DNA from: Chloroflexota bacterium
Lineage (GTDB): Bacteria; Chloroflexota; UBA11872
DNA: 64,000 nt
Reading direction: 5' to 3'
Assembly: GCA_965198285.1 (NCBI GenBank)
Contig: OZ240251.1
Location: 3,445,752-3,509,751, forward strand
Both the position numbers and the translations under genes were made by a program. This document shows, piece after piece, positions 3,392-61,920 of this stretch (the stretch's first letter is position 1; each line of letters opens with the position of its first letter). The notes under the pieces are model-generated. The model did not search any database and was not told the origin of the DNA. It worked only from the letters and a program-made list of their open reading frames with translations.

Positions 3392-3626
3392 TGCACCAAA
3401 CTCGCAGCCTCCCGCCCGCGCGTCGCGATCGGCCCGTCGGTGCTTGAGTTTCAGGTTGGTCGCTATGCGCCAGGCGAGGTACTTCTCCTTGGCGCCTGCG
3501 GCGGTCGGTTCAACGATGCTTGAAACCAGGCGCCGGTACACCGACAAGGTCGTCGCACGGTCGGCTGCTTCCGACGCAACAACGAGGATTGATGCGGAAA
3601 TCAGCGGTTCGCGCCGATACGCCTGC

Positions 3627-16108: not shown

Positions 16109-17254
16109 ATGGTCGCACTCGCGCTTTCCACCCGCGATCCGGCAACGGCGATTGGCCAGCCGGTCGACGTTTTGGACACGCCGGCATTGGTCCTGGACCT
16201 CAGAGTCGTAGAGGCCAACATCGCCCGCACGGTCGAGATCGCCCAGGCCGCCGGCGCCCGGCTGCGGCCGCACATCAAGACCCACCGAATGCTCGCGGTG
16301 GCCCAACGCCAGATCGAGGCTGGCGCACAGGGCATCTGTTGCGCCAAGACCGGTGAGGCCGAGGTCTTCGCCGACGGCGGTGTCGATGACATCTTCATCG
16401 CCAACCAGGTCGTCGGCGCGGCCAAGATGCGGCGGCTACGAGCGCTCGCCGAGCGCGTCCGGCTCGCCGTGGGCGTCGATCACCCTGAGCAGATCGACTT
16501 GCTCAGCCAGGCATTTCGCGGGGCTGATCCCCTCGACATCAGCATCGAGATCGATGTAGGCCAGCGCCGTACCGGGGTGGTGGAAGACCATGAGGCCGTC
16601 GACCTGGCCCAGCGGATCCTGGATTCGCCGGGGCTCGCCTTGCGGGGCGTCTACACCCACGAAGGCCACGATTACGCGGCGCGGGATGATTCGGACCTGG
16701 CCGTGATCGCGGACCAGGCTCAACGCCAGATGCTGGATGCGGCGCAGGCCATCCGAGACGCCACAGGGGCAGCCTGCGAGGTGAGCATGGGATCGACGCC
16801 GTCGCTGTTCGCACGCAAGTTCCATGCGGGCATCGATGAACTGCGGCCGGGTACCGCCGTCTTCAACGACGGCTCGCACGCCAACTTCCTGGGCCACACC
16901 GACTGGTGTGCGGCCACCGTGCTGGCCACCGTGGTCAACCGGCCCGCGCCCGACCGGGTGGTGGTGGACGCCGGCGCCAAGGCTCTGACCTCCGATCGTC
17001 GTGGGCCCAGCATTCTGGAAAACAGCGGCTTCGGGATGGTCGTGGGCCGCCCCGAGGCCACCATCGTGAGTCTGTCCGACGAGCACGGCGTGCTTTCGGT
17101 GCCGGACGCCGATGCCTATGCCATCGGCGAGGTAATTCAGATCATCCCCAACCACATCTGCCCCTGCGTGAATCTGTACGACCATGCCTTCGTTGCGCGT
17201 GACGGAATCGTGCGGGAAGTGTGGGAAGTCTCGGCACGCGGGCAGAGTCAGTAG
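16109..17254 (+). CDS. alanine-racemase-fold PLP enzyme (DSD1 / D-serine or D-threo-3-hydroxyaspartate dehydratase-like)
   Basis: 381 aa. The PLP lysine context LRPHIKTHRM and the C-terminal beta-domain are present. It is divergent from the aldehyde dehydrogenase. Confidence 0.6.
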   Translation: MVALALSTRDPATAIGQPVDVLDTPALVLDLRVVEANIARTVEIAQAAGARLRPHIKTHRMLAVAQRQIEAGAQGICCAKTGEAEVFADGGVDDIFIANQVVGAAKMRRLRALAERVRLAVGVDHPEQIDLLSQAFRGADPLDISIEIDVGQRRTGVVEDHEAVDLAQRILDSPGLALRGVYTHEGHDYAARDDSDLAVIADQAQRQMLDAAQAIRDATGAACEVSMGSTPSLFARKFHAGIDELRPGTAVFNDGSHANFLGHTDWCAATVLATVVNRPAPDRVVVDAGAKALTSDRRGPSILENSGFGMVVGRPEATIVSLSDEHGVLSVPDADAYAIGEVIQIIPNHICPCVNLYDHAFVARDGIVREVWEVSARGQSQ

Positions 17255-17288
17255 CCAACGCCACTCGCCCGAAGGGAACTCGAGAGTC

Positions 17289-18056
17289 ATGGGAGCTCTT
17301 GACGGTCAAGCCGCCTTGGTCACCGGCGGCGGCAGCGGGATCGGCCGGGCGGCCGCCTTGGCGCTGGCGGGCGATGGCGCCGCGGTAGCCCTGGTCGGGC
17401 GGCGGCTCGCGCTCCTGGAAGAATCCGCCGGGATGATCAAGACGGCCAGAGGCCGCGTCCTGGTTCTGCCGGCCGACGTCGCCGATGCCGACGCGGTCCG
17501 TGAGGCCGTAGCCCAGACCGAAGCCGATTTCGGCCGTCTCGACATCCTGGTCAACAACGCCGGCGCTAACACCGCGTCGCGCAGCGTGGGCACAACCAGC
17601 GCCGACGACATCGAAACGCTGATGCGGATAAACGTGACCGGGCCCCTCACCCTGTCCCAGGCCGCGTTGCCGGGAATGCTGGAACGCGGCGGTGGGGTGA
17701 TCATCACGGTGGCGTCGTACTCGGTCGTAAGCCCCGGGCCGCCTGGCGGAACGGCCTACAGCGCCTCCAAGGCGGCCGTGGTGAGCCTGATGAAATGCGT
17801 GAACGCCGAGTACCGCAACCGCGGTATCCGGGCTTGCATCATCTACCCCGGCGAGGTGAACACCGAGATGCTGGATGCCCGCCCGCTCGTACCCGACGCC
17901 ACCGCCCGCGCAACCATGAGCCACGCCGACGACCTGGCCCAGATCATCCTGCTCTGCGCCCGCATGCCGGCGCGAACGCTGGTTGAAGAGATCTACGTCC
18001 GCCCGACCCACCTGCGCAACATGCAAGCCGACATCGCAGCCGCGATGGAGTTTTAG
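17289..18056 (+). CDS. short-chain dehydrogenase/reductase (SDR), paralog 1
   Basis: ORF 17184..18056 with start MGALDGQAALVTGGGSGIGRAAA (TGxxxGIG), NNAG, and YSASKAAV (YxxxK). It is about 60% identical to 26491..27258. Confidence 0.75.
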   Translation: MGALDGQAALVTGGGSGIGRAAALALAGDGAAVALVGRRLALLEESAGMIKTARGRVLVLPADVADADAVREAVAQTEADFGRLDILVNNAGANTASRSVGTTSADDIETLMRINVTGPLTLSQAALPGMLERGGGVIITVASYSVVSPGPPGGTAYSASKAAVVSLMKCVNAEYRNRGIRACIIYPGEVNTEMLDARPLVPDATARATMSHADDLAQIILLCARMPARTLVEEIYVRPTHLRNMQADIAAAMEF

Positions 18057-18286: not shown

Positions 18287-18369
18287 GGCGGGTTGGCGAC
18301 GAAGGTTGGGGCTGTGAGGGGGCGGCAGGGCGGCGCTGGAAGGGCTGGGTGCGCGGACGTGGCGAGGGG

Positions 18370-18432
18370 GTGGGGTGGGGGCGTCGCGAGCGGAAGAGGC
18401 CGGTTTCAAACCGGCCCCTACGAAAGATGGGG
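18370..18432. repeat. flank repeat block A (left copy); right copy at 26049..26113
   Basis: GTGGGGTGGGGGCGTCGCGAGCGGAAGAGGCCGGTTTCAAACCGGCCCCTACGAAAGATGGGG compared with GTGGGGGGTGTTGGGCTGCGACCGGAAGAGGCCGGTTTGAAACCGGCCCGTACGAAAGAGGGGG. Both contain a GGCCGGTTT-N-AAACCGGCC hairpin. Confidence 0.6.
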
Positions 18433-18624
18433 AACAAGCGGGGGCCAGGCGTCAGGAAGGTGAGTAGGCGGATTAGGGGGGCGAGCATGGAGGGTCCGGG
18501 GGAGGGACTTGGGAAAGGGCGTCTCTAGTGTACACTGCATGGATACGAAGAGCAAGGGTGATAAGGGTAGTGAGTCATTTTGATGTCTCCATGCGGCCTG
18601 GTTGGGGGACAGACCTCGACCGGA

Positions 18625-19050
18625 GGACCCCTCACCGAATTCCGCCGGGGACGGCGGAGTCTGCCTCTCCCCTCGGAGAGGGTGAAGAGCCGGGCAGCGA
18701 CTGAGGAGCGTGGGGTGCGCTGGAGTTGGTTGCCCGGGGGACCCCTCACCGATTTCGGCCGAAGACGCCCGAATCTGCCTCTCCCCTTGGAGAGGGTGAA
18801 GAGCCGGGCAGCGACTGAGGAGCGTGGGGTGCGCTGGAGTTGGTTGCCCGGGGGGACCCCTCACCGAATTCCGCCGGGGACGGCGGAGTCTGCCTCTCCC
18901 CTCGGAGAGGGTGAAGATTGGGAGCCGCCACGTAGGACCGTGGTGGGTGCTCGGACGAGCCCTCACCGATTTCCGCCGAAGACGGCGGAATCCTTCGGCT
19001 AGCTCAGGACGGGTTCTGCCTCTCCCCCAGGCGAGGGGAGGATTGGCGGG
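18625..19050. repeat. ~114-bp tandem repeat, 3.8 copies, each unit carrying two hairpins (REP/MITE-like family)
   Basis: The unit is GGACCCCTCACCGAATTCCGCCGGGGACGGCGGAGTCTGCCTCTCCCCTCGGAGAGGGTGAAGAGCCGGGCAGCGACTGAGGAGCGTGGGGTGCGCTGGAGTTGGTTGCCCGGG. The hairpins are TTCCGCCG-NNNN-CGGCGGAA and CCTCTCC-CCTC-GGAGAGG. Related copies lie at 58.23 kb and 61.87 kb. Confidence 0.7.
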
Positions 19051-19127
19051 ATGTGGTTCGACTCGGGCCCATTCGACAGGCTCAGGGCAGGTTCTTCGAC
19101 GGACTCTGGCCCGGCTGACCATGAACG
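19048..19127. repeat. flank repeat block B (left copy); right copy at 26199..26255
   Basis: GGGATGTGGTTCGACTCGGGCC ... GGACTCTGGCCCGGCT(G/C)ACCATGAACGG is shared. The left copy has a 30-bp insertion between the two halves. Confidence 0.55.
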
Positions 19128-19329
19128 GTGGATGCGAGTACGTGGGCTCGGGTTGGTGGGGAGGTCGGGGTGACACTGGTGCGCTGGGATTGTTGGGTGC
19201 TGCTGGGTCCCGGCTGGGGACGCCGGGATGACGGGGGAAGTGCGCTCGGGATGCGGGCGTGGACGGGATGTGAGGTTGCGCTGGGTTTGATCATGGTGCT
19301 GGGTCCCGGCTGAAGACGCCGGGATGACG

Positions 19330-19455
19330 GGATGTGTTCAGTCGGTCGGGCCAATGTGTTCAGTTTTGGGGCGACTGTGTTCAGTTTTTGGCCCGATGTG
19401 TTCACTCTCCGGCCGAATGTGTTCACTTTGGCGAGGCAGGTGTTCAGTTTTCGGT
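19330..19455. repeat. iteron-like array 1: 6 x 21-22 bp direct repeats (consensus GGCCRAATGTGTTCAGTTTTNGG)
   Basis: The units start near 19331, 19354, 19376, 19396, 19417 and 19439. They are contiguous with no spacers, and the array is preceded by GACGCCGGGATGACGGG. Confidence 0.7.
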
Positions 19456-19497
19456 GGCGGGCGTTGGTTGGGGATCGGGGACGGCGGGATGACGGGG

Positions 19498-19615
19498 ATG
19501 TGTCCACTCTGTCAGGCCAATGTGTCCAGTTTTTGGCCCGATGTGTCAACTTTTCGGGCGAATGTGTCCAGTTTTTGCCGAAATGTGTCCAGTTTCCGGC
19601 CGAATGTGTGCGGTG
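19498..19615. repeat. iteron-like array 2: 6 x 21-22 bp direct repeats (variant core ATGTGTCCAGTTTT)
   Basis: The units start near 19499, 19519, 19541, 19562, 19584 and 19604. The array is preceded by GACGGCGGGATGACGGGG, so the two arrays form a higher-order duplication of about 170 bp. Confidence 0.7.
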
Positions 19616-20151
19616 AGGAAGGGAAGAGGGGAGAGCGGAGAGTAGCGAGAGGGGACAAATAGGGGACTGCCTGTGCGGGCTGGGTGCTTCGGGTGTGGTT
19701 CGACAGGCTCACCAGGGACGCAGGGTGCGCTGGGATCGATCATGGCGGTGGGTTCCCCTCCTTCGGCTAGCTCAGGACAGGCTTCGACAAGCTCAGGGAA
19801 GGCTCTCCAGGGACGCCGGGATGACGAGCGTGGTGGCAAGTGGTTGGTGGGTGGTGGGGAGTGGCTTGTGCCGAGGTCGGTTGTTGGGCTGCTGGAGTTT
19901 TGGGGCGAACCGGGGAACGGGGATGCCGGCAATGACATCACTGCCAGCAACGCGATCAGTGCGTGCGGTGCTGGCAGTGCAGGCAACGCTGGCAGGGATT
20001 CCGGAGTCGGAGAGGCAGAGGCGGACAGGGACATGTCTTAGGCGAATGTCCGAAGCAGCATGTGGTTCAATGGCTGGGGCGTACTGTCGGCATTCCCAGG
20101 TCACAGGGTCCGCGCAGCCTGGGCCATCGTGCAGGAGTCGTGTGGGACAAT

Positions 20152-20166
20152 CGTGTGCTAAGCACA
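20152..20166. promoter_or_regulatory. 15-bp palindrome GTGTGCT-A-AGCACAC 23 nt upstream of the 20189 start (candidate operator)
   Basis: Perfect 7-bp arms, with a direct repeat TCGTGTG just upstream. Confidence 0.3.
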
Positions 20167-20188
20167 CCGCGCCTAATCTCTAGGGATA

Positions 20189-21799
20189 TTGCCTGAGACT
20201 ATGGTCATTAACGATCTAAACGCACTCCTGCAAGCTAAAACTAAGATTGAAAACCTCCTCGAGAATGGTGATACGACTGAGGCTTTTGATTTTGCAGACA
20301 ATCTTTGCGCAGGATCGGGCCAAGAGTCCCTTGTGAGAAACCTGCGTGCATGCACATACGCTGACGTAGGCGAACAGAACAATCAGATCTCTCTAATCGA
20401 AGAGGCAATTCGCATTTGGCGTTCGGCCGGGGAAGAAATCACAACTCGCGAGTCGTACAACTTGGCAAGCTCTATGTTGAGCATTTGGAGTCTCTATGAA
20501 GGGCAACACGGATTTGCCGATACTTGGCTGGAACAACGCGACTATCTGCGCGATTCTAGGAAGATATTCTCAGAAATCGCTAACGACGAGGGAGCTGAAA
20601 CAGAATTCCGGTTAAAGGCGCTAACTGACGCTGGAAACTCTTACGACAATGTCGGACGGCACACGGACGCCATCGATTGCTTCGATCGTGCACTCGCGCT
20701 CGACTCTTCATTTGCAATGGCGACGGGCAATCGCGGCCTGGCCCTCCTCTACGCATCGCCTTACATGAGGGATTTTGAGCGTGAGATTGAGCTACTCGCG
20801 GCAGCAGACCTTGATCACGCGATAAGTAATTCGGAAAGCGTGCTAAAGCATGGCGGAGAGTCGGCGCTAGAGAGCTTTCGCCGGCAGCGCTCTGCAATAC
20901 CTGACTTGCCGAGTGCATCTGATGAATCTGAACCGATGCCACCTAGGTTTACCGATCCTCATTTGACCTGGTGCCTGCGCGAAGGGCTCTTTCTGCACGT
21001 AGCGCCGTGGCTGGTGGGTAGCAATGCGTCGGTTCTCGACCCAATTTTCTTCAGGCGCATAATAACGAGTCTCGGCGCAAGGGACATAACCCTCACCAAT
21101 GAGATCATTGACGCATTTAATACGATTAAGCAGGACTTTGTGTCGGCTCGCTATTTGGTGTGGGCATCGAGTGAGCCTAGCAGTCCAATCTGGACGCATG
21201 CTCAGTCGATCAGCTCGCACGTATCATTTTTGGATACTCTCGATTACGGCAGGTGGGGCGTTCGAACTGGTACTGCAATTCAGGCATTCAAGGCGGCTGT
21301 AGATGTTCTGGATAAGAGTGCGTCCTTTGCACACTTGTACTTCGGCACCAAACAGGCAGCTCGTCGTGTATCGTTTCGTAGCCTACCTTACGAGGACAGC
21401 GCACGTCGAAACGTTGCGGCAGCGTTTGAGAGTGCTTTGAACGGAAAGTCGCCTAACCGAGGGTTGTCGGCCTTAATGGATCTGAGCTACGAACTTGATG
21501 ACGAGGGATCATCGCCTCTAGCACTTAATGTAAACATGCGACACGCTGCCACGCATCGGTTCTTGACTGTTCATTCTGAGATGGCTCCGGAATCGTCGGA
21601 CTGGAGTGAGCGAATCAACTGGCGAGATCTCATCGACGAGTCTTTGTGTCAATTACGACTTGCGAGGTCTGCAATATTCTATTTAGCGCAGATGATTGAC
21701 ATGCAAGAGGATGTCAAGATTGCTACGGAAGCTGGAATGTCGGTGACCATGGCGCTGCCATATGCAAGGCTAGACACTGACTTGCTGGAGGCCGAATAG
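20189..21799 (+). CDS. TPR-repeat protein with C-terminal HEPN-like R-x4-H motif (candidate LA2681-type HEPN RNase / Abi-like protein)
   Basis: 536 aa. The N-terminal two-thirds holds several TPR-like helical pairs (for example AIDCFDRALALDSSFAMATGNRGLAL). At the C-terminus ...ALNVNMRHAATHRFLTVH... gives R-x4-H, the HEPN catalytic signature, in a predicted all-helical region. GC is about 45-50% against ~68% for the flanks, and there is a clean ATG with no overlap. Confidence 0.45.
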   Translation: MPETMVINDLNALLQAKTKIENLLENGDTTEAFDFADNLCAGSGQESLVRNLRACTYADVGEQNNQISLIEEAIRIWRSAGEEITTRESYNLASSMLSIWSLYEGQHGFADTWLEQRDYLRDSRKIFSEIANDEGAETEFRLKALTDAGNSYDNVGRHTDAIDCFDRALALDSSFAMATGNRGLALLYASPYMRDFEREIELLAAADLDHAISNSESVLKHGGESALESFRRQRSAIPDLPSASDESEPMPPRFTDPHLTWCLREGLFLHVAPWLVGSNASVLDPIFFRRIITSLGARDITLTNEIIDAFNTIKQDFVSARYLVWASSEPSSPIWTHAQSISSHVSFLDTLDYGRWGVRTGTAIQAFKAAVDVLDKSASFAHLYFGTKQAARRVSFRSLPYEDSARRNVAAAFESALNGKSPNRGLSALMDLSYELDDEGSSPLALNVNMRHAATHRFLTVHSEMAPESSDWSERINWRDLIDESLCQLRLARSAIFYLAQMIDMQEDVKIATEAGMSVTMALPYARLDTDLLEAE

Positions 21800-26004: not shown

Positions 26005-26490
26005 TAGAGAAGGACGTTTTCGGTACGGGGAAGCATCGCATGTTTGGGGGTGGGGGGTGTTGGGCTGCGACCGGAAGAGGCCGGTTTGAAACCGGCCCGT
26101 ACGAAAGAGGGGGCGGGGACGGCGGGGGCGTCACGACCGGAAGGTGGGGGGCGGGTTCTCCGAGGGACGCCGGGGCGGCTCACCACGAACGGGGGGCTGG
26201 GGATGTGGTTCGACTCGGGCCGCCGAGGGACTCTGGCCCGGCTCACCATGAACGGATAGAGAAGACGGGCGGGTCGGGGGCAACGGCCCTGCGAAGGGCA
26301 GGACGGGAGGGCGCGGGGTGGGGCAAAGCGTCTGGATTGACCGAAGCGCCGTGGGCCGTAGATGACATGATGGGTGTGGTCGAGTCACGCAGAGATACGG
26401 TGAGCGACGTCGGGACGGGGCGGACGGGTCGCCGTAACTCAATGTGACCCAATACTGAGAATCCAGCAGCCGCGAAGGGCAGGTGCGCCG

Positions 26491-27258
26491 ATGAAACAGC
26501 TGAATGGTCAAGTCGCGTTGGTGACCGGCGCCGGAACCGGTATCGGTCGCGCCAGCGCAATTGCGCTGGCCCGCGAAGGAGCGGCGGTGACGCTGGTTGG
26601 GCGGCGTCAGTCCTTGCTCGATGAGACTGCGGCCACGATTCGAGGTGCGGGCGGCACGGCGCTGGCTCTCCCGGCCGACATCACCGATCCCGAAGCCGCG
26701 CGGGCCGTGGTGGCGAAAACCGAGTCCGAGTTCGGGCGTCTGGACGTCCTGGTTAACAACGCCGGCGGCGGCAGCCGGTCACGCAGCGTGCGAACGATCG
26801 AAGCAGACGATTTCGAGGGCGTGCAGCGGCTGAACGTGACGGCCCCGATGGTGCTCACGCAGGCGGCGCTGCCGGGGATGCTGGACCGTGGGACCGGCAC
26901 CGTCATCACCATTTCGTCGTACGCCGCCGTCACTGCCGGCCCGATGGCCGGCGTGGCCTATGGCGCCGCGAAGGCGGCCGTGGCGAGCGTGATGAAGAGC
27001 GTCAACAACGAACTCCGCAGCCACGGCCTGCGGGCCTGCACGATTTTCCCGGGCGAAGTGGACACCCCGATCCTGGAACGCCGCAAGCTGGTCCCGGACG
27101 CTGCGGCGCGCGCCACGATGATGCAGTCCGAAGACCTGGCCGAAATCGTCCGCCTCTGCGCCTGCCTGCCCGGCCGCACGCTGATTGAAGAGGTCTACGT
27201 GCGACCGACCCACCTGCGCGACCTGAGCGCCGACACCGAGGCGGCGCTAGAGACCTAG
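26491..27258 (+). CDS. short-chain dehydrogenase/reductase (SDR), paralog 2
   Basis: 255 aa. It has TGAGTGIGRA, NNAG, and YGAAKAAV, and is collinear with SDR paralog 1 over its full length. Confidence 0.75.
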   Translation: MKQLNGQVALVTGAGTGIGRASAIALAREGAAVTLVGRRQSLLDETAATIRGAGGTALALPADITDPEAARAVVAKTESEFGRLDVLVNNAGGGSRSRSVRTIEADDFEGVQRLNVTAPMVLTQAALPGMLDRGTGTVITISSYAAVTAGPMAGVAYGAAKAAVASVMKSVNNELRSHGLRACTIFPGEVDTPILERRKLVPDAAARATMMQSEDLAEIVRLCACLPGRTLIEEVYVRPTHLRDLSADTEAALET

Positions 27259-55041: not shown

Positions 55042-55723
55042 GAGGGCGGGGGGCGTCGGATTTGGGCTGAAACGGGGCGGTTGTAGGGGCGTTCTGGAGC
55101 GGCTGAGTCGGGCAGGCCGGGGTGGGGGGCACGGGCTGACGGGGCGCGGCGTCGTGCCGGAGGTGTTGGTTGCCTCCGGGCCCCGGCCGGGGACGCCAGG
55201 AAGACGGGCGGAGGGCGACGGGGCGGTCGGCCACCCGACGGCGCGACCGGTCCGGCGCCCGGGTGCCGGGATCGGGGAATCGGGGTTGCGTGGTCATGGG
55301 GCCTATGGTACTCTTTCTGAGTACCGATGGCAAGTGACAAGTGAATGGCGTGGGGCGCCGGTTTCGCACCCGACACGGGGCCGGCCCAGATTGAGGGTCC
55401 GCCGGGCTGTGGGCGATGGGCTCAGCGCGGGTAGGAGCCCGGGTTCGGTCTGTGGTGCGCCTTGATTGGGGATCGGGCGCGGCAAGAGGGCCGGATTCCC
55501 CATTCGATCAGCTCAGGGAAGGCTCTTCGAGAGGCTCAGGCCAGGCTCTCGGCTCCGCTGCGCTGCGCTCGGAGTCTTGTGTTGGCCGTCAGGGTCCGGG
55601 AGCCCGGTACAGCGACCGCATATGCTTCGGCCACGACGTTGAGCCCCGAACACGCATACTCGACCCAGGCCGGAAGGCCACCGGGAGCCGAGATCGCCTC
55701 TAGACTGGGCGTGGATCTGAACG

Positions 55724-56989: not shown

Positions 56990-58260
<1,271 letters not shown>

Positions 58261-58427
58261 CCAGATTGAGTCCGGGGCCGGTTATTCCTCCCCTGGCAAG
58301 AGGCGAAGCGCGGCGCAGTCCATAAGTGCTCGCCATGGCCACACCGTTGCCGGCGTGCGGGATTGGAACTCGTCTCATTCGGCGCATGAATAGCTGACAC
58401 AACTCTTATACTTGCCGGGGACTCTAC

Positions 58428-61819: not shown

Positions 61820-61867
61820 GGCGTGTCAGATGTGGAGACCATTGCGAAACCCGCGGGTAGGTTGCCC

Positions 61868-61920
61868 GGAAGACCCTCACCCCGACCCTCTCCCAGAGGG
61901 AGAGGGAGTAAGAGCCGCCA
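61868..61920. repeat. solitary copy of the hairpin repeat family seen at 18.6-19.05 kb
   Basis: GACCCTCACCCCGACCCTCTCCC-AGA-GGGAGAGGGAGTAAGAGCCGCCAC. It has a 9-bp perfect stem and is collinear with the GACCCCTCACC...CCTCTCCCCTCGGAGAGGGTGAAGAGCCGG unit. Confidence 0.5.

What the first reader, a model, noticed from the sequence alone, without database searches (positions are those of the whole stretch)
18625..19050. Hairpin-bearing repeat family present in tandem here, beside the IS110 element (58.23 kb) and at 61.87 kb, showing compensatory stem changes
The roughly 114-bp unit carries two hairpins (TTCCGCCG-loop-CGGCGGAA and CCTCTCC-CCTC-GGAGAGG). Across copies the first stem switches between CCGCCG/CGGCGG and CCGGCG/CGCCGG, and the loops vary (GGGA or AAGA), while pairing is preserved. 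That pattern means selection is acting on the structure. One copy abuts the 3' end of the IS110-family element. IS110-family transposases are known to target specific repeated structures such as REP elements. This family may therefore be the insertion target of the resident IS110, or a REP/MITE-like element with an RNA-level function.
Basis: seen in the sequence. Interest (0 to 1): 0.6.

Follow-up and report, generated by a model that had tools for sequence, protein, structure and literature searches.

The report
Hairpin repeat targeted by IS110
A short two-hairpin DNA repeat, found singly and in tandem between genes of an uncultured Chloroflexota bacterium, is the exact landing site that the resident RNA-guided IS110 element is programmed to hit; this is a clean new example of a known relationship, not a new kind of system.

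Summary
The repeat is real. There are four head-to-tail units at 18617-19048. A fifth copy is not merely beside the IS110 element but is split by it (left half 57006-57046, IS 57047-58229, right half from 58230). The 61.87-kb element is only a distant relative without hairpin 1. The IS 5' untranslated region encodes a bridge RNA. Its target loop reads AAGACCCCU and UCGGUGAG, which spells the repeat segment AAGACCC-CT-CACCGA just 5' of hairpin 1. All 20 related IS copies recovered from at least six Chloroflexota assemblies sit at this same position and in the same orientation. Sister IS lineages with different guide loops sit in different repeats. Across 67 distinct copies, hairpin 1 is 96% paired and 4 of its 8 pairs changed on both sides. 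An uncompensated C.C variant, which includes window unit 2, is nevertheless common. Hairpin 2 and the target core are conserved in sequence. There is no GTAG/CGTC tag, no terminal inverted repeat, no terminator and no orientation bias relative to genes. The closest described motif is the Rfam orphan whalefall-1 (RF01762), matched on the opposite strand below its threshold. Verdict: a REP-like repeat family that serves as an IS110 target. The concept is known; the family and its whalefall-1 link are new.

The parts
18617..18694 (+). Repeat unit 1: left arm CGACCGGAGGACCC, core CT, CACCGA, hairpin 1 (TCCGCCG-GGGA-CGGCGGA, 18641-18658), hairpin 2 (CCTCTCC-CCTC-GGAGAGG, 18664-18681), GTGAAGAG tail
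   Evidence: Family model R1 scores 93.5 bits; sequence; hairpins
18731..18808 (+). Repeat unit 2; hairpin 1 is the mismatched variant CGGCCG/CGCCCG (C.C)
   Evidence: 97.2 bits; fold z-score -1.5
18846..18923 (+). Repeat unit 3; its core is identical to that of unit 1
   Evidence: 84.6 bits; D12 shows 100% identity
18948..19048 (+). Repeat unit 4, with the optional 24-nt module CTTCGGCTAGCTCAGGACGGGTTC between hairpin 1 and hairpin 2, and a degenerate left arm (GAGCCC)
   Evidence: 75.2 bits; alignment A1; module family
57006..57046 (+). Left half of a repeat copy split by the IS (…GAGTTGGTTGCTCGGAAGACCC + core CT)
   Evidence: D14 match to the tandem units; sequence; 35/37 identical to the left arm of the uninterrupted copy L151:2281-2204
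57047..58229 (+). IS110-family insertion sequence (about 1183 bp), flanked by the core dinucleotide CT on both sides (57045-57046 and 58230-58231)
   Evidence: Ends defined by comparison with uninterrupted repeat copies and with 19 related IS copies
57047..57267 (+). [quoted passage not shown] Donor-binding loop: LDG AACAGTTGCC 57189-57198 and RDG GAGATACAAGG 57220-57230
   Evidence: Alignment of 31 untranslated regions; consensus fold with covarying stems; coordinates; fold z-score -2.75; sub-threshold hit to RF02234 on the opposite strand
57268..58206 (+). IS110 recombinase gene (312 aa)
   Evidence: Pfam PF01548 (3e-22) and PF02371 (2e-20); matches IS621 (8wt6, E 1.4e-44) and ISCro4 (9t56)
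58230..58315 (+). Right half of the split repeat copy: CT-CACCTA, hairpin 1 (TTCCGGCG-AAGA-CGCCGGAA, 58239-58258), and a degenerate hairpin-2 region
   Evidence: 56.5 bits with R1; fold z-score -4.95
61860..61914 (+). Related but distinct element: the same left arm (GGTTGCCCGGAAGACCCTCACC), no hairpin 1, and a 9-bp hairpin CCCTCTCCC-AGA-GGGAGAGGG. It matches the target type of a third IS110 lineage (L019/L021)
   Evidence: 16.4 bits, E 0.25; L019/L021 flanks and guides

Best explanation
The 114-bp tandem unit belongs to a family of non-coding, extragenic two-hairpin repeats. The core is about 78 bp; with its variable linker the unit is 102-126 bp. The family populates intergenic DNA of a clade of uncultured Chloroflexota, both singly and in head-to-tail arrays. 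Core layout: left arm (TGGTTGCNCGG or CGACCGG)-RAGACCC-CT-CACCGA, then hairpin 1 (8-10 bp stem, 4-nt loop, variable sequence), then an optional 24-bp module, then TCTG, then hairpin 2 (CCTCTCC/GGAGAGG, conserved sequence), then GTGAAGA. The 17 bp just 5' of hairpin 1 (AAGACCC-CT-CACCGA) is the programmed target of the resident IS110 element. The left end of the IS encodes a bridge RNA. Its left target guide has the same sequence as the top strand left of the CT core, so it pairs with the bottom strand. Its right target guide is complementary to the top strand right of the core. The DEDD/serine recombinase then exchanges strands at CT between this target and the RE-CT-LE junction of the circularised IS. 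This yields the arrangement seen at 57.0-58.3 kb: left half of the repeat, CT, IS, CT, right half. Shown here: the repeat family, the position of the split, guide-target complementarity and its co-variation across IS lineages, and maintained pairing of hairpin 1 through two-sided changes. Inferred by homology to IS621: the recombination chemistry, and that this copy is active. Not resolved: what spreads the repeats themselves, and whether hairpin 1 acts as DNA or as RNA. I think most likely that it acts as a single-stranded or cruciform DNA structure that keeps the element recognisable, perhaps also to the recombinase.
For: Repeat family; model R1 finds 31 strong copies in the window and related loci and 49 more in new loci. 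Split copy: (D14). Bridge RNA: conserved two-loop architecture in 31 untranslated regions, with covarying scaffold stems (e.g. 92-103 UA to GC, 65-131 GC to AU). The window LTG AAGACCCCT equals the left flank 9/9. The RTG reverse complement CTCACCGA equals the family consensus 8/8. All 20 group-A IS copies (82-99% aa identity, at least six assemblies) lie at the same site and in the same orientation, with LTG 7-9/9 and RTG 7-8/8. Sister lineages have different guides that match their different flanks: TCCGCCCCT/…GTAG in GTAG-type hairpins, ATT(G/A)ACCCT/GGGAGAG in the 61.87-kb-type element, and GCGGCCCCT/TTGCGTAG in GGCCGG hairpins. The mean match to an IS's own target is 14.7/17, against 9.5/17 for other lineages' targets. 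The LDG covaries with the IS right end: CAGTTG, CCGTTG, CAGTCG. The pairing rules are those stated for IS621 (PMC11208160). The recombinase is homologous to IS621. Hairpin 1 covariation is shown. All copies are intergenic (and the gene lists). ORFs across the array have no Pfam hit.
Against: No experiment or transcript data is available. The window holds one IS copy, and its own right flank has one mismatch to the RTG (CACCTA instead of CACCGA). The repeat copies are related by descent and amplified as subfamilies, so cell counts overstate the number of independent compensatory events; I count about six. The commonest single stem haplotype in the first 24 copies carries an uncompensated C.C mismatch, and 15 of 67 copies are unpaired at that position. 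Perfect pairing is therefore not strictly required. The nearest described motif, whalefall-1, was rated a genuine RNA by its authors, which favours an RNA reading that I cannot exclude. The mechanism that amplifies the repeats is unknown.
Confidence: 0.78

Rival explanations
1. The units are genes or processing products of a small structured RNA (whalefall-1-like sRNA) with a cellular function. Under this reading, IS110 targeting is a secondary exploitation of a conserved sequence.
For: Hairpin 1 covaries strongly. 23 of 67 copies have U.G at the closing pair on the + strand, which would be A.C on the other strand. The units hit Rfam RF01762 at 16.7-33.2 bits with block-by-block sequence similarity, and its authors rated that motif as certainly RNA.
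Against: The elements are multicopy and form head-to-tail arrays of up to 5 or more units, with 49 hits in about 60 kb around IS copies. No sigma-70-like promoter or intrinsic terminator is found. Orientation relative to neighbouring genes is mixed, roughly 7 against 5. The whole-unit fold is no better than shuffles (z -0.79). A mismatched stem variant is common. The Rfam hits fall on the strand opposite to the one favoured by the G.U counts, so the strand evidence conflicts. All hits are below the Rfam gathering score.
Confidence: 0.15
2. It is a classical REP/REPtron system: palindromic units mobilised by a RAYT (IS200/IS605-type Y1 transposase) that recognises the hairpin plus a conserved tetranucleotide tag.
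For: The elements are extragenic, short, palindromic and variable in copy number. The stem is variable but paired, next to an invariant flank, as in REPs. Genuine GTAG-tagged hairpins coexist in the same intergenic region (18398-18421). GTAG REPs are known in Chloroflexi (PMC3733652).
Against: There is no GTAG or CGTC tag next to hairpin 1 (sequence). The units are arranged head-to-tail rather than as the inverted dimers typical of REPs (PMC3733652). No Y1 transposase appears among the called genes of 27 loci.
Confidence: 0.07
3. The units are non-autonomous derivatives of the IS110 element itself (MITE-like mini-IS), or by-products of its recombination, spread in trans by the bridge recombinase.
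For: Some units carry the last 14 nt of the IS right end fused at CT to CACCG with no IS body (L004/L006/L022 at 4369, L151 at 2196). One locus has an RE-CT-LE mini-junction (L007 4035-4060).
Against: Most units have an uninterrupted LT-CT-RT and no IS end sequences. There are no terminal inverted repeats and no enclosing helix: the best stem averages 5.85 against 5.79 for mismatched partners. The donor-binding loop matches the IS ends, not the repeat.
Confidence: 0.04
4. The 'compensatory' changes need no selection. Mutations in one arm of a DNA palindrome are copied to the other arm by intra-strand template switching or hairpin-templated repair, and subfamilies are then amplified.
For: The changes are mostly C-G to G-C swaps inside a perfect palindrome. 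One-step intermediates persist and are amplified: CCGCCG/CGCCGG lies between CCGCCG/CGGCGG and CCGGCG/CGCCGG, and CGGCCG/CGCCCG is one step from CGGCCG/CGGCCG.
Against: Five different pairs show two-sided changes, including transitions (C-G to U-A at two pairs), while the flanking 8-12 nt stay invariant. That pattern also fits selection on pairing. The two readings cannot be separated with these data.
Confidence: 0.25

Closest known systems
IS621 / IS110-group bridge-RNA recombinases and their REP targets (Durrant et al. 2024, PMC11208160; Tobes & Pareja 2006, PMC1525189; ISPpu9, PMC12288879; ISPpu10, bioRxiv 10.64898/2026.03.19.712850)
   Same: DEDD plus Transposase_20 recombinase. Bridge RNA encoded in the left non-coding end, with target- and donor-binding internal loops. 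CT core. LTG equals the top strand of the left target, and RTG is complementary to the right target. Insertion occurs at one fixed position and orientation in an extragenic palindromic repeat. A stem-loop lies next to the target.
   Different: About 45-bit-level homology only (E 1e-44 to IS621). The RTG is long (8 nt, against 4 in IS621). The target is not a GTAG-type REP but a composite two-hairpin unit that forms head-to-tail arrays. The adjacent hairpin lies on the right-target (3') side, whereas the ISPpu10 stem-loop involves the 5' side and the left target itself.
Rfam RF01762 whalefall-1 RNA motif (Weinberg et al. 2010, PMC2864571)
   Same: On the minus strand of the units: hairpin CUCUCC-NNNN-GGAGAG, then CAGA, then a second hairpin of variable sequence bracketed by GAUU…AAUC, then a purine-rich tail (GGUGAGGGGUC here; GGGUGAGGAU or AGAGGGAGGAC in the seed). 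The block order and much of the sequence agree.
   Different: Scores of 16.7-24 bits in the window and at most 33.2 bits in related loci fall below the gathering score of 37. The seed comes from AT-rich whale-fall contigs, whereas this family is in 65-70% GC Chloroflexota. Whalefall-1 was described as a stand-alone sRNA candidate with 16 representatives, not as a genomic repeat or an IS target.
REP / BIME elements of Proteobacteria; GTAG- and CGTC-tagged palindromes (Di Nocera et al. 2013, PMC3733652)
   Same: Short extragenic palindromes. Subfamilies have alternative complementary stem residues. The organisation is a mosaic with optional extra modules. They serve as IS targets.
   Different: No GTAG/CGTC tag. 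Two different hairpins per unit. Direct rather than inverted arrangement. No RAYT seen nearby.
GTAG-type REP hairpins of Chloroflexi (e.g. the GTAG-23 family of Thermomicrobium roseum, PMC3733652)
   Same: They are present in the same intergenic region (GTAGGGGCCGGTTTGAAACCGGCC at 18398-18421, minus strand) and are the targets of sister IS110 lineages, with the cut inside the tag (CT|AC).
   Different: They are a different repeat family from the one in the finding: a single hairpin, GTAG-tagged, and unoccupied in this window.

Membership tests
IS110-family bridge-RNA-guided insertion sequence (IS110 group) | [quoted passage not shown] | tested here: met
   (E 3e-22 and 2e-20); homologous to the IS621 and ISCro4 recombinases
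IS110-family bridge-RNA-guided insertion sequence (IS110 group) | Structured non-coding RNA in the non-coding end upstream of the recombinase, with two internal loops | tested here: met
   The 221-nt left end folds with z -2.75. The architecture is conserved in 31 relatives. Scaffold stems covary. Transcription itself was not tested.
IS110-family bridge-RNA-guided insertion sequence (IS110 group) | Target-loop guides match the left (same sense) and right (complementary) flanks, including the CT core | tested here: met
   Window: LTG 9/9; RTG 7/8 to its own flank and 8/8 to the family consensus. 20 of 20 related copies match at 15/17 or better. Guides and flanks co-vary across five lineages.
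IS110-family bridge-RNA-guided insertion sequence (IS110 group) | Donor-loop guides match the IS ends | tested here: met
   The LDG AACAGTTGC matches the right end …ACAGTTG-CT and covaries (CCGTTG, CAGTCG) in relatives. The RDG match to the left end is discontinuous (7/9), as also described for IS621.
IS110-family bridge-RNA-guided insertion sequence (IS110 group) | Excision to a circle and RNA-guided insertion demonstrated | not testable with these tools
   Needs circle-junction PCR or a recombination assay
REP (GTAG/CGTC-tagged, RAYT-associated) | Conserved GTAG or CGTC tetranucleotide at one end of the palindrome | tested here: not met
   The flanks of hairpin 1 are CACCGA(T/A)T and AATCTGCC in 67 copies
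REP (GTAG/CGTC-tagged, RAYT-associated) | Association with a RAYT (Y1 transposase) gene | tested here: inconclusive
   None appears among the called genes of 27 loci, but whole genomes could not be scanned
REP (GTAG/CGTC-tagged, RAYT-associated) | Extragenic, short, palindromic, multicopy | tested here: met
Rfam RF01762 whalefall-1 | Covariance-model score at or above the gathering score (37 bits) | tested here: not met
   16.7-24 bits in the window; best 33.2 bits at L162:4647-4703
Rfam RF01762 whalefall-1 | [quoted passage not shown] | tested here: met
   Met on the minus strand of each unit; seed sequences and description
MITE | Terminal inverted repeats flanking the unit (and a target-site duplication) | tested here: not met
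   Only the internal hairpins are found. The best flank-to-flank stem averages 5.85 nt, against 5.79 nt for mismatched partners.
Intrinsic terminator | GC-rich stem followed by a T run | tested here: not met
   No call at the units. The stems are followed by AATCTG and GTGAAG.

The most novel reading that the evidence does not exclude
Whalefall-1-type 'sRNA' motifs may in fact be a cross-phylum superfamily of two-hairpin repeated DNA elements. Their invariant purine-rich tail would be conserved because it is the docking sequence for bridge-RNA recombinases. The freely covarying hairpin next to the right target would act as a structural gate for IS110 insertion, a right-side counterpart of the stem-loop 'dual-match' reported for ISPpu10. 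The arrays would then work as safe-harbour landing pads that keep IS110 out of genes. The solo RE-CT-RT scars would be footprints of bridge-RNA-mediated chromosomal rearrangement between array units.
Probability: 0.15. Interest if true: 0.65.

Novelty: new variant of a known kind. Interest (0 to 1): 0.42.

Why it matters
1. It gives natural, internally validated bridge-RNA/target pairs with a long 9+8-nt target guide. It also shows a small radiation of sister elements whose guides have retargeted to different host repeats. That is useful raw material for orthogonal bridge recombinases and for studying how guides evolve.
2. It links an orphan Rfam family (whalefall-1) to a genomic repeat that is an IS110 target. 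It also suggests that Rfam sX15 (RF02234) models the antisense strand of an IS110 bridge RNA. Both annotations deserve revision.
3. The arrays are called as 'hypothetical proteins' in metagenome-assembled genomes (e.g. L161 and L162). Recognising the family removes these spurious genes and explains likely assembly breakpoints.
4. The hairpin immediately next to the right target offers a direct test of whether target DNA structure contributes to IS110 specificity outside Pseudomonas.

Tried and rejected
- Metagenome scan with the 16-mer GACCCCTCACCGAWTT. Only L050, L083, L121 and L151 held true copies.
- Exact look-up of the window's own recombinase. It is not on record, although an identical protein exists on a 3.83-Mb contig (P0001). 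The source genome therefore could not be scanned.
- Repeat against plasmids and viral contigs: no match. A phage or plasmid att-site reading is not supported.
- Whole-unit RNA structure: z -0.79. RNAalifold keeps only the two local hairpins.
- A long-range helix or terminal inverted repeat enclosing the unit. It was suggested by TGCCCGG…CCGGGCA in window unit 2, but it is no better than mismatched-partner controls across 41 intact copies. Rejected.
- A CCTCACC/GGTGAAG outer pairing. The 3' side varies without compensation (alignment A1). Rejected.
- Terminator or promoter function: nothing at the units.
- Orientation bias relative to neighbouring genes: none (with rough GC3-based gene calls).
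- Coding potential of the ORFs over the array (18418-19176 minus strand, 18580-19002 plus strand): no Pfam hit, and they fail the GC3 pattern.
- Hairpin 2 covariation. It cannot be judged, because my search anchors and the model select for its consensus, and it is nearly invariant.
- My first two regex attempts to pull out the guide loops picked the wrong loop. The table replaces them.

Full report
**Checking the observation.** Region 18300-20190 is non-coding. It lies between a short-chain dehydrogenase gene that ends at 18056 and a low-GC HEPN/TPR gene that starts at 20189. TRF reports a 114-nt period at 18620-18917 (2.6 copies, 90% matches, score 524). The repeat finder adds a fourth, more diverged unit. 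A degenerate pattern for the hairpin-1 module matches 5 times in the window against 0 expected. The matches are the four tandem units and one copy at 58229-58258, just after the IS110 gene. The hairpin-2 pattern is equally non-random.

Two details in the finding need correcting. Unit 2 has the stem CGGCCG/CGCCCG with a C.C mismatch and a weak fold (z -1.5, against -3.6 to -5.4 for the other copies). The element at 61.87 kb lacks hairpin 1 and is only a distant relative (16.4 bits, E 0.25 with the family model, against 56-101 bits for true copies).

**The IS is inside a copy, not beside one.** The 41 nt before the IS (57006-57046, …GAGTTGGTTGCTCGGAAGACCCCT) match the left arm of the tandem units (family D14). 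The sequence after the IS starts CTCACCTATTTCCGGCGAAGACGCCGGAA. Uninterrupted units read …GGAAGACCCCTCACCGATTTC…. The element 57047-58229 therefore interrupts a unit between GACCC-CT and CACC, with the dinucleotide CT on both sides. One metagenome contig (L151) holds an uninterrupted unit whose left arm is 35/37 identical to the window's split copy.

**The IS carries a bridge RNA that spells the repeat.** The ORF 57268-58206 has the DEDD and Transposase_20 domains. It is homologous to the structurally solved bridge recombinases IS621 and ISCro4 (E about 1e-44). A scan of one genome per species returned 36 related loci, nearly all from Chloroflexota MAGs. A protein search followed by exact look-ups added 27 more loci.

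Aligning the 5' non-coding ends of 31 copies shows a conserved scaffold of two stem-enclosed internal loops. RNAalifold recovers the target-loop stems with compensatory changes. [quoted passage not shown]
- In the window, the segment in the LTG position reads AAGACCCCT (57119-57127), identical to the 9 nt before the IS.
- The segment in the RTG position reads TCGGTGAG (57144-57151), the reverse complement of CTCACCGA. That is the family consensus right of the core; the window's own flank has one mismatch.
- The donor loop reads AACAGTTGC, matching the IS right end …ACAGTTG-CT.

**Specificity holds across copies, and guides co-vary with targets.** All 20 full-length copies of this lineage sit at the same position and orientation in this repeat. 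They share 82-99% aa identity and come from the window, OY764080.1, OZ242271.1, two ERZ2507… assemblies and seven contigs of ERZ25068511. Their guide matches are 7-9/9 and 7-8/8, and their outer flanks differ. Two truncated copies (L030, L035) show the same right junction. Three copies in OZ242271.1 share about 400 nt of right flank and may not be fully independent.

Sister lineages carry different guides and sit in different repeats:
- TCCGCCCCT/…GTAG elements lie after GC-rich hairpins ending …CCGCCC-CT|AC, that is, inside the GTAG tag of classical REP-type palindromes.
- GCGGCCCCT/TTGCGTAG elements lie in GGCCGGTTTCAAACCGGCCC-CT|ACG hairpins. The window has two unoccupied examples of this type (18398-18421 and 26079-26102).
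- ATT(G/A)ACCCT/GGGAGAG elements lie in CCCCGACC-CT|CTCCC…GGGAGAGGG, the type seen at 61.87 kb.

Guides match their own flanks at a mean of 14.7/17, against 9.5/17 for other lineages' flanks. The donor guide co-varies with the right end in the same way. This is the known bridge-RNA logic.

**The repeat family itself.** I built a covariance model from 24 copies. It finds 31 strong matches in the window and first loci, and 49 more in the new loci. All lie in genomes that host this IS lineage and all are intergenic. Many form head-to-tail arrays with 112-126-nt spacing, with the IS inserted within the arrays.

The units are modular. There are two alternative left arms. A 24-nt module (CTTCGRCNRGCTCAGGRCAGGTTC), which also occurs alone at 19072, 19762-19806 and 55503-55549, can sit between the hairpins. 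This is a BIME-like mosaic.

The family lacks the following features:
- a GTAG or CGTC tag;
- terminal inverted repeats or an enclosing helix;
- a terminator tail or promoter;
- consistent orientation relative to neighbouring genes;
- copies in plasmid or viral collections.

**Covariation.** I counted pairs on 67 distinct copies aligned with MAFFT. Hairpin 1 is paired in 95.9% of cells, and 4 of its 8 pairs changed on both sides:

| Pair | Pair types (counts) |
|---|---|
| 26-43 | UA 45, GC 20 |
| 28-41 | CG 35, GC 20, UA 10 |
| 30-39 | GC 32, CG 20, unpaired 15 |
| 31-38 | CG 54, UA 12 |

A flanking pair across the optional insertion also switches (AU to GC). The covariation score is 0.237 against 0.116 in shuffles (0 of 500 reach it). 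Slid controls pair at only 42-59%.

The sequences on either side (CTCACC, CTGCCTCTCCCC) are nearly invariant. Pairing is therefore maintained while the stem sequence drifts.

Four caveats apply:
- The copies fall into amplified subfamilies, so I estimate only about six independent double changes.
- One-step uncompensated intermediates persist and have been amplified (C.C at 30-39).
- In a DNA palindrome, arm-to-arm template copying could produce the same pattern without selection.
- Hairpin 2 is almost invariant and was selected for by my searches, so it says nothing about structure.

The level at which it acts (RNA or DNA) is open.

**Closest described motif.** A permissive Rfam scan shows that every unit hits RF01762, the whalefall-1 RNA, on the minus strand. 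Scores are 16.7-24 bits in the window and up to 33.2 bits in L162, against a gathering score of 37. The published seed sequences, when reverse-complemented, align block by block with these units: GTCCTCCCTCT-GATT-stem-loop-stem-AATC-TGTCTCCCC…GGGGAGA against GACCCCTCACC-GATT-stem-loop-stem-AATC-TGCCTCTCC…GGAGAGG.

[quoted passage not shown] It was known only from whale-fall metagenomes, had 16 representatives, and was rated as certainly RNA. In the present family that purine-rich tail is the reverse complement of the IS110 target core.

I do not file the units as members of RF01762, because they are below its threshold. They are clearly the same kind of element, however. This suggests whalefall-1 may be a repeat family of this type rather than a stand-alone sRNA.

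The strand evidence conflicts. Rfam's orientation is the minus strand, while 23 of 67 copies have a U.G closing pair on the plus strand.

**Mechanism and verdict.**

Shown:
- a repeat family;
- an IS110 element inserted at a fixed site within it;
- a bridge-RNA-type non-coding end whose loops spell the target and the IS ends, with co-variation across lineages;
- a hairpin next to the target whose pairing is maintained.

Inferred from IS621 and its relatives:
- circular-intermediate, CT-centred, RNA-guided recombination.

Unknown:
- how the repeats spread;
- what hairpin 1 does.

IS110 targeting of extragenic palindromes has been known since IS621 and the REP surveys (PMC1525189, PMC11208160), and a target-side stem-loop has recently been implicated for ISPpu10. 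The concept is therefore not new. What is new is this particular two-hairpin, array-forming Chloroflexota family, its 9+8-nt guide pair, the small radiation of sister IS lineages retargeted to other host repeats, and the link to whalefall-1.

Noticed in passing
window 57095-57251 (minus strand); L157 (pXCV183 116378-116536): The IS110 5' non-coding end hits Rfam RF02234 (Xanthomonas sRNA sX15) at 50.5 bits (gathering score 55), on the strand opposite to the recombinase. The same holds for all related IS copies (39-51 bits). At the original sX15 locus the + strand contains GGCAACTGTTCGGGC, the reverse complement of the donor-guide region, and there is no adjacent recombinase gene. RF02234 therefore seems to model the antisense strand of an IS110 bridge-RNA remnant; the reported antisense partner asX7 would be the sense strand.
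   Followed up: partly
window 18398-18421 (-) and 26079-26102 (-): GTAG-tagged REP-type hairpins (GTAGGGGCCGGTTTGAAACCGGCC and GTACGGGCCGGTTTCAAACCGGCC), embedded in a 67-nt repeat (18366-18432 and 26047-26113, 81% identical). Both are unoccupied here. The same hairpin type is the insertion site (CCC-CT|AC) of sister IS110 lineages in other Chloroflexota (L178-L184, and L010-L034 for a related hairpin).
   Followed up: partly
window 19332-19454 and 19498-19609: Two blocks of a 21-nt tandem repeat (ATGTGTTCAGTTTTCGGGCCA and ATGTGTCCAGTTTTCGGCCGA; about 5.8 and 5.3 copies, 71-75% matches) with strong negative AT skew. They lie just upstream of a low-GC HEPN/TPR gene and an Eco57I/MmeI-like restriction-modification gene. 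The 21-nt phasing suggests a protein-binding array (iteron-like). Function unknown.
   Followed up: no
window 19198-19235, 19294-19331, 19459-19496, 55171-55208: A further hairpin repeat family (GGGTCCCGGCTGGGGACGCCGGGATGACGGG), with stem CCCGGC/GCCGGG and a loop like that of hairpin 1 (GGGGAC/GAAGAC).
   Followed up: no
window 18994-19017, 19072-19095, 19762-19806, 55503-55549: A 24-nt module (TTCGRCNRGCTCAGGRCAGGYTCT) that occurs alone, as tandem pairs, and inserted between hairpins 1 and 2 of the main repeat (window unit 4, L002, L005, L008, L050, L121, L158). Six matches against 0.32 expected.
   Followed up: partly
L004/L006/L022 4355-4380; L151 2210-2185 (-); L164 about 3527-3545; L007 4021-4060; L083 430-405 (-) and 200-150 (-): Repeat units fused at CT to the last 14 nt or so of an IS right end (…CGCCTCAACACAGTTG-CT-CACCGG…) with no IS body. 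L007 has an RE-CT-LE mini-junction followed by sequence that, in the orthologous IS-free locus L083, is preceded by GGAAGATTC-CT. L083 also has a solo left target (GGAAGACCCCT-TAGCC…). These look like footprints of past IS110 insertion, deletion or rearrangement within arrays.
   Followed up: partly
window 17184-18056 and 26491-27258: Two paralogous short-chain dehydrogenase genes (70-73% nt identity over about 540 nt, 9.2 kb apart, same strand) bracket the repeat mosaic and a lower-GC block (20.2-22.0 kb, GC 0.50-0.54). That block carries a HEPN_LA2681/TPR gene and a 1340-aa Eco57I/MmeI-type restriction-modification gene. This is probably an inserted defence island.
   Followed up: no
L161 1878-2486 and 3533-4177; L162 1770-2486; window ORFs 18418-19176 (-) and 18580-19002 (+): Long ORFs running through the repeat arrays are called as hypothetical proteins in public assemblies. 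They have no Pfam hit and are almost certainly spurious.
   Followed up: partly
L160-L166 (e.g. L161:2014-2091, L163:2095-2173): A subfamily of the repeat with right target CACCTTC and stem TTCTGGCG/CGCCAGAA accounts for 12 of the 67 copies. It is never occupied by the IS in this sample; every occupied site has CACCGA/CACCGG, or CACCTA in the window. This fits discrimination by the 8-nt right target guide.
   Followed up: partly
L043-L156 (many human-gut metagenome contigs): The 16-mer GACCCCTCACCGATTT also occurs in a highly conserved human-gut sequence (…GAGCAACTGTGAGTT|GACCCCTCACCGATTTCGTATCTTTGCATTGTGG…) found on dozens of contigs. It is unrelated to the Chloroflexota repeat and is presumably a multicopy or very common gut element.
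   Followed up: no
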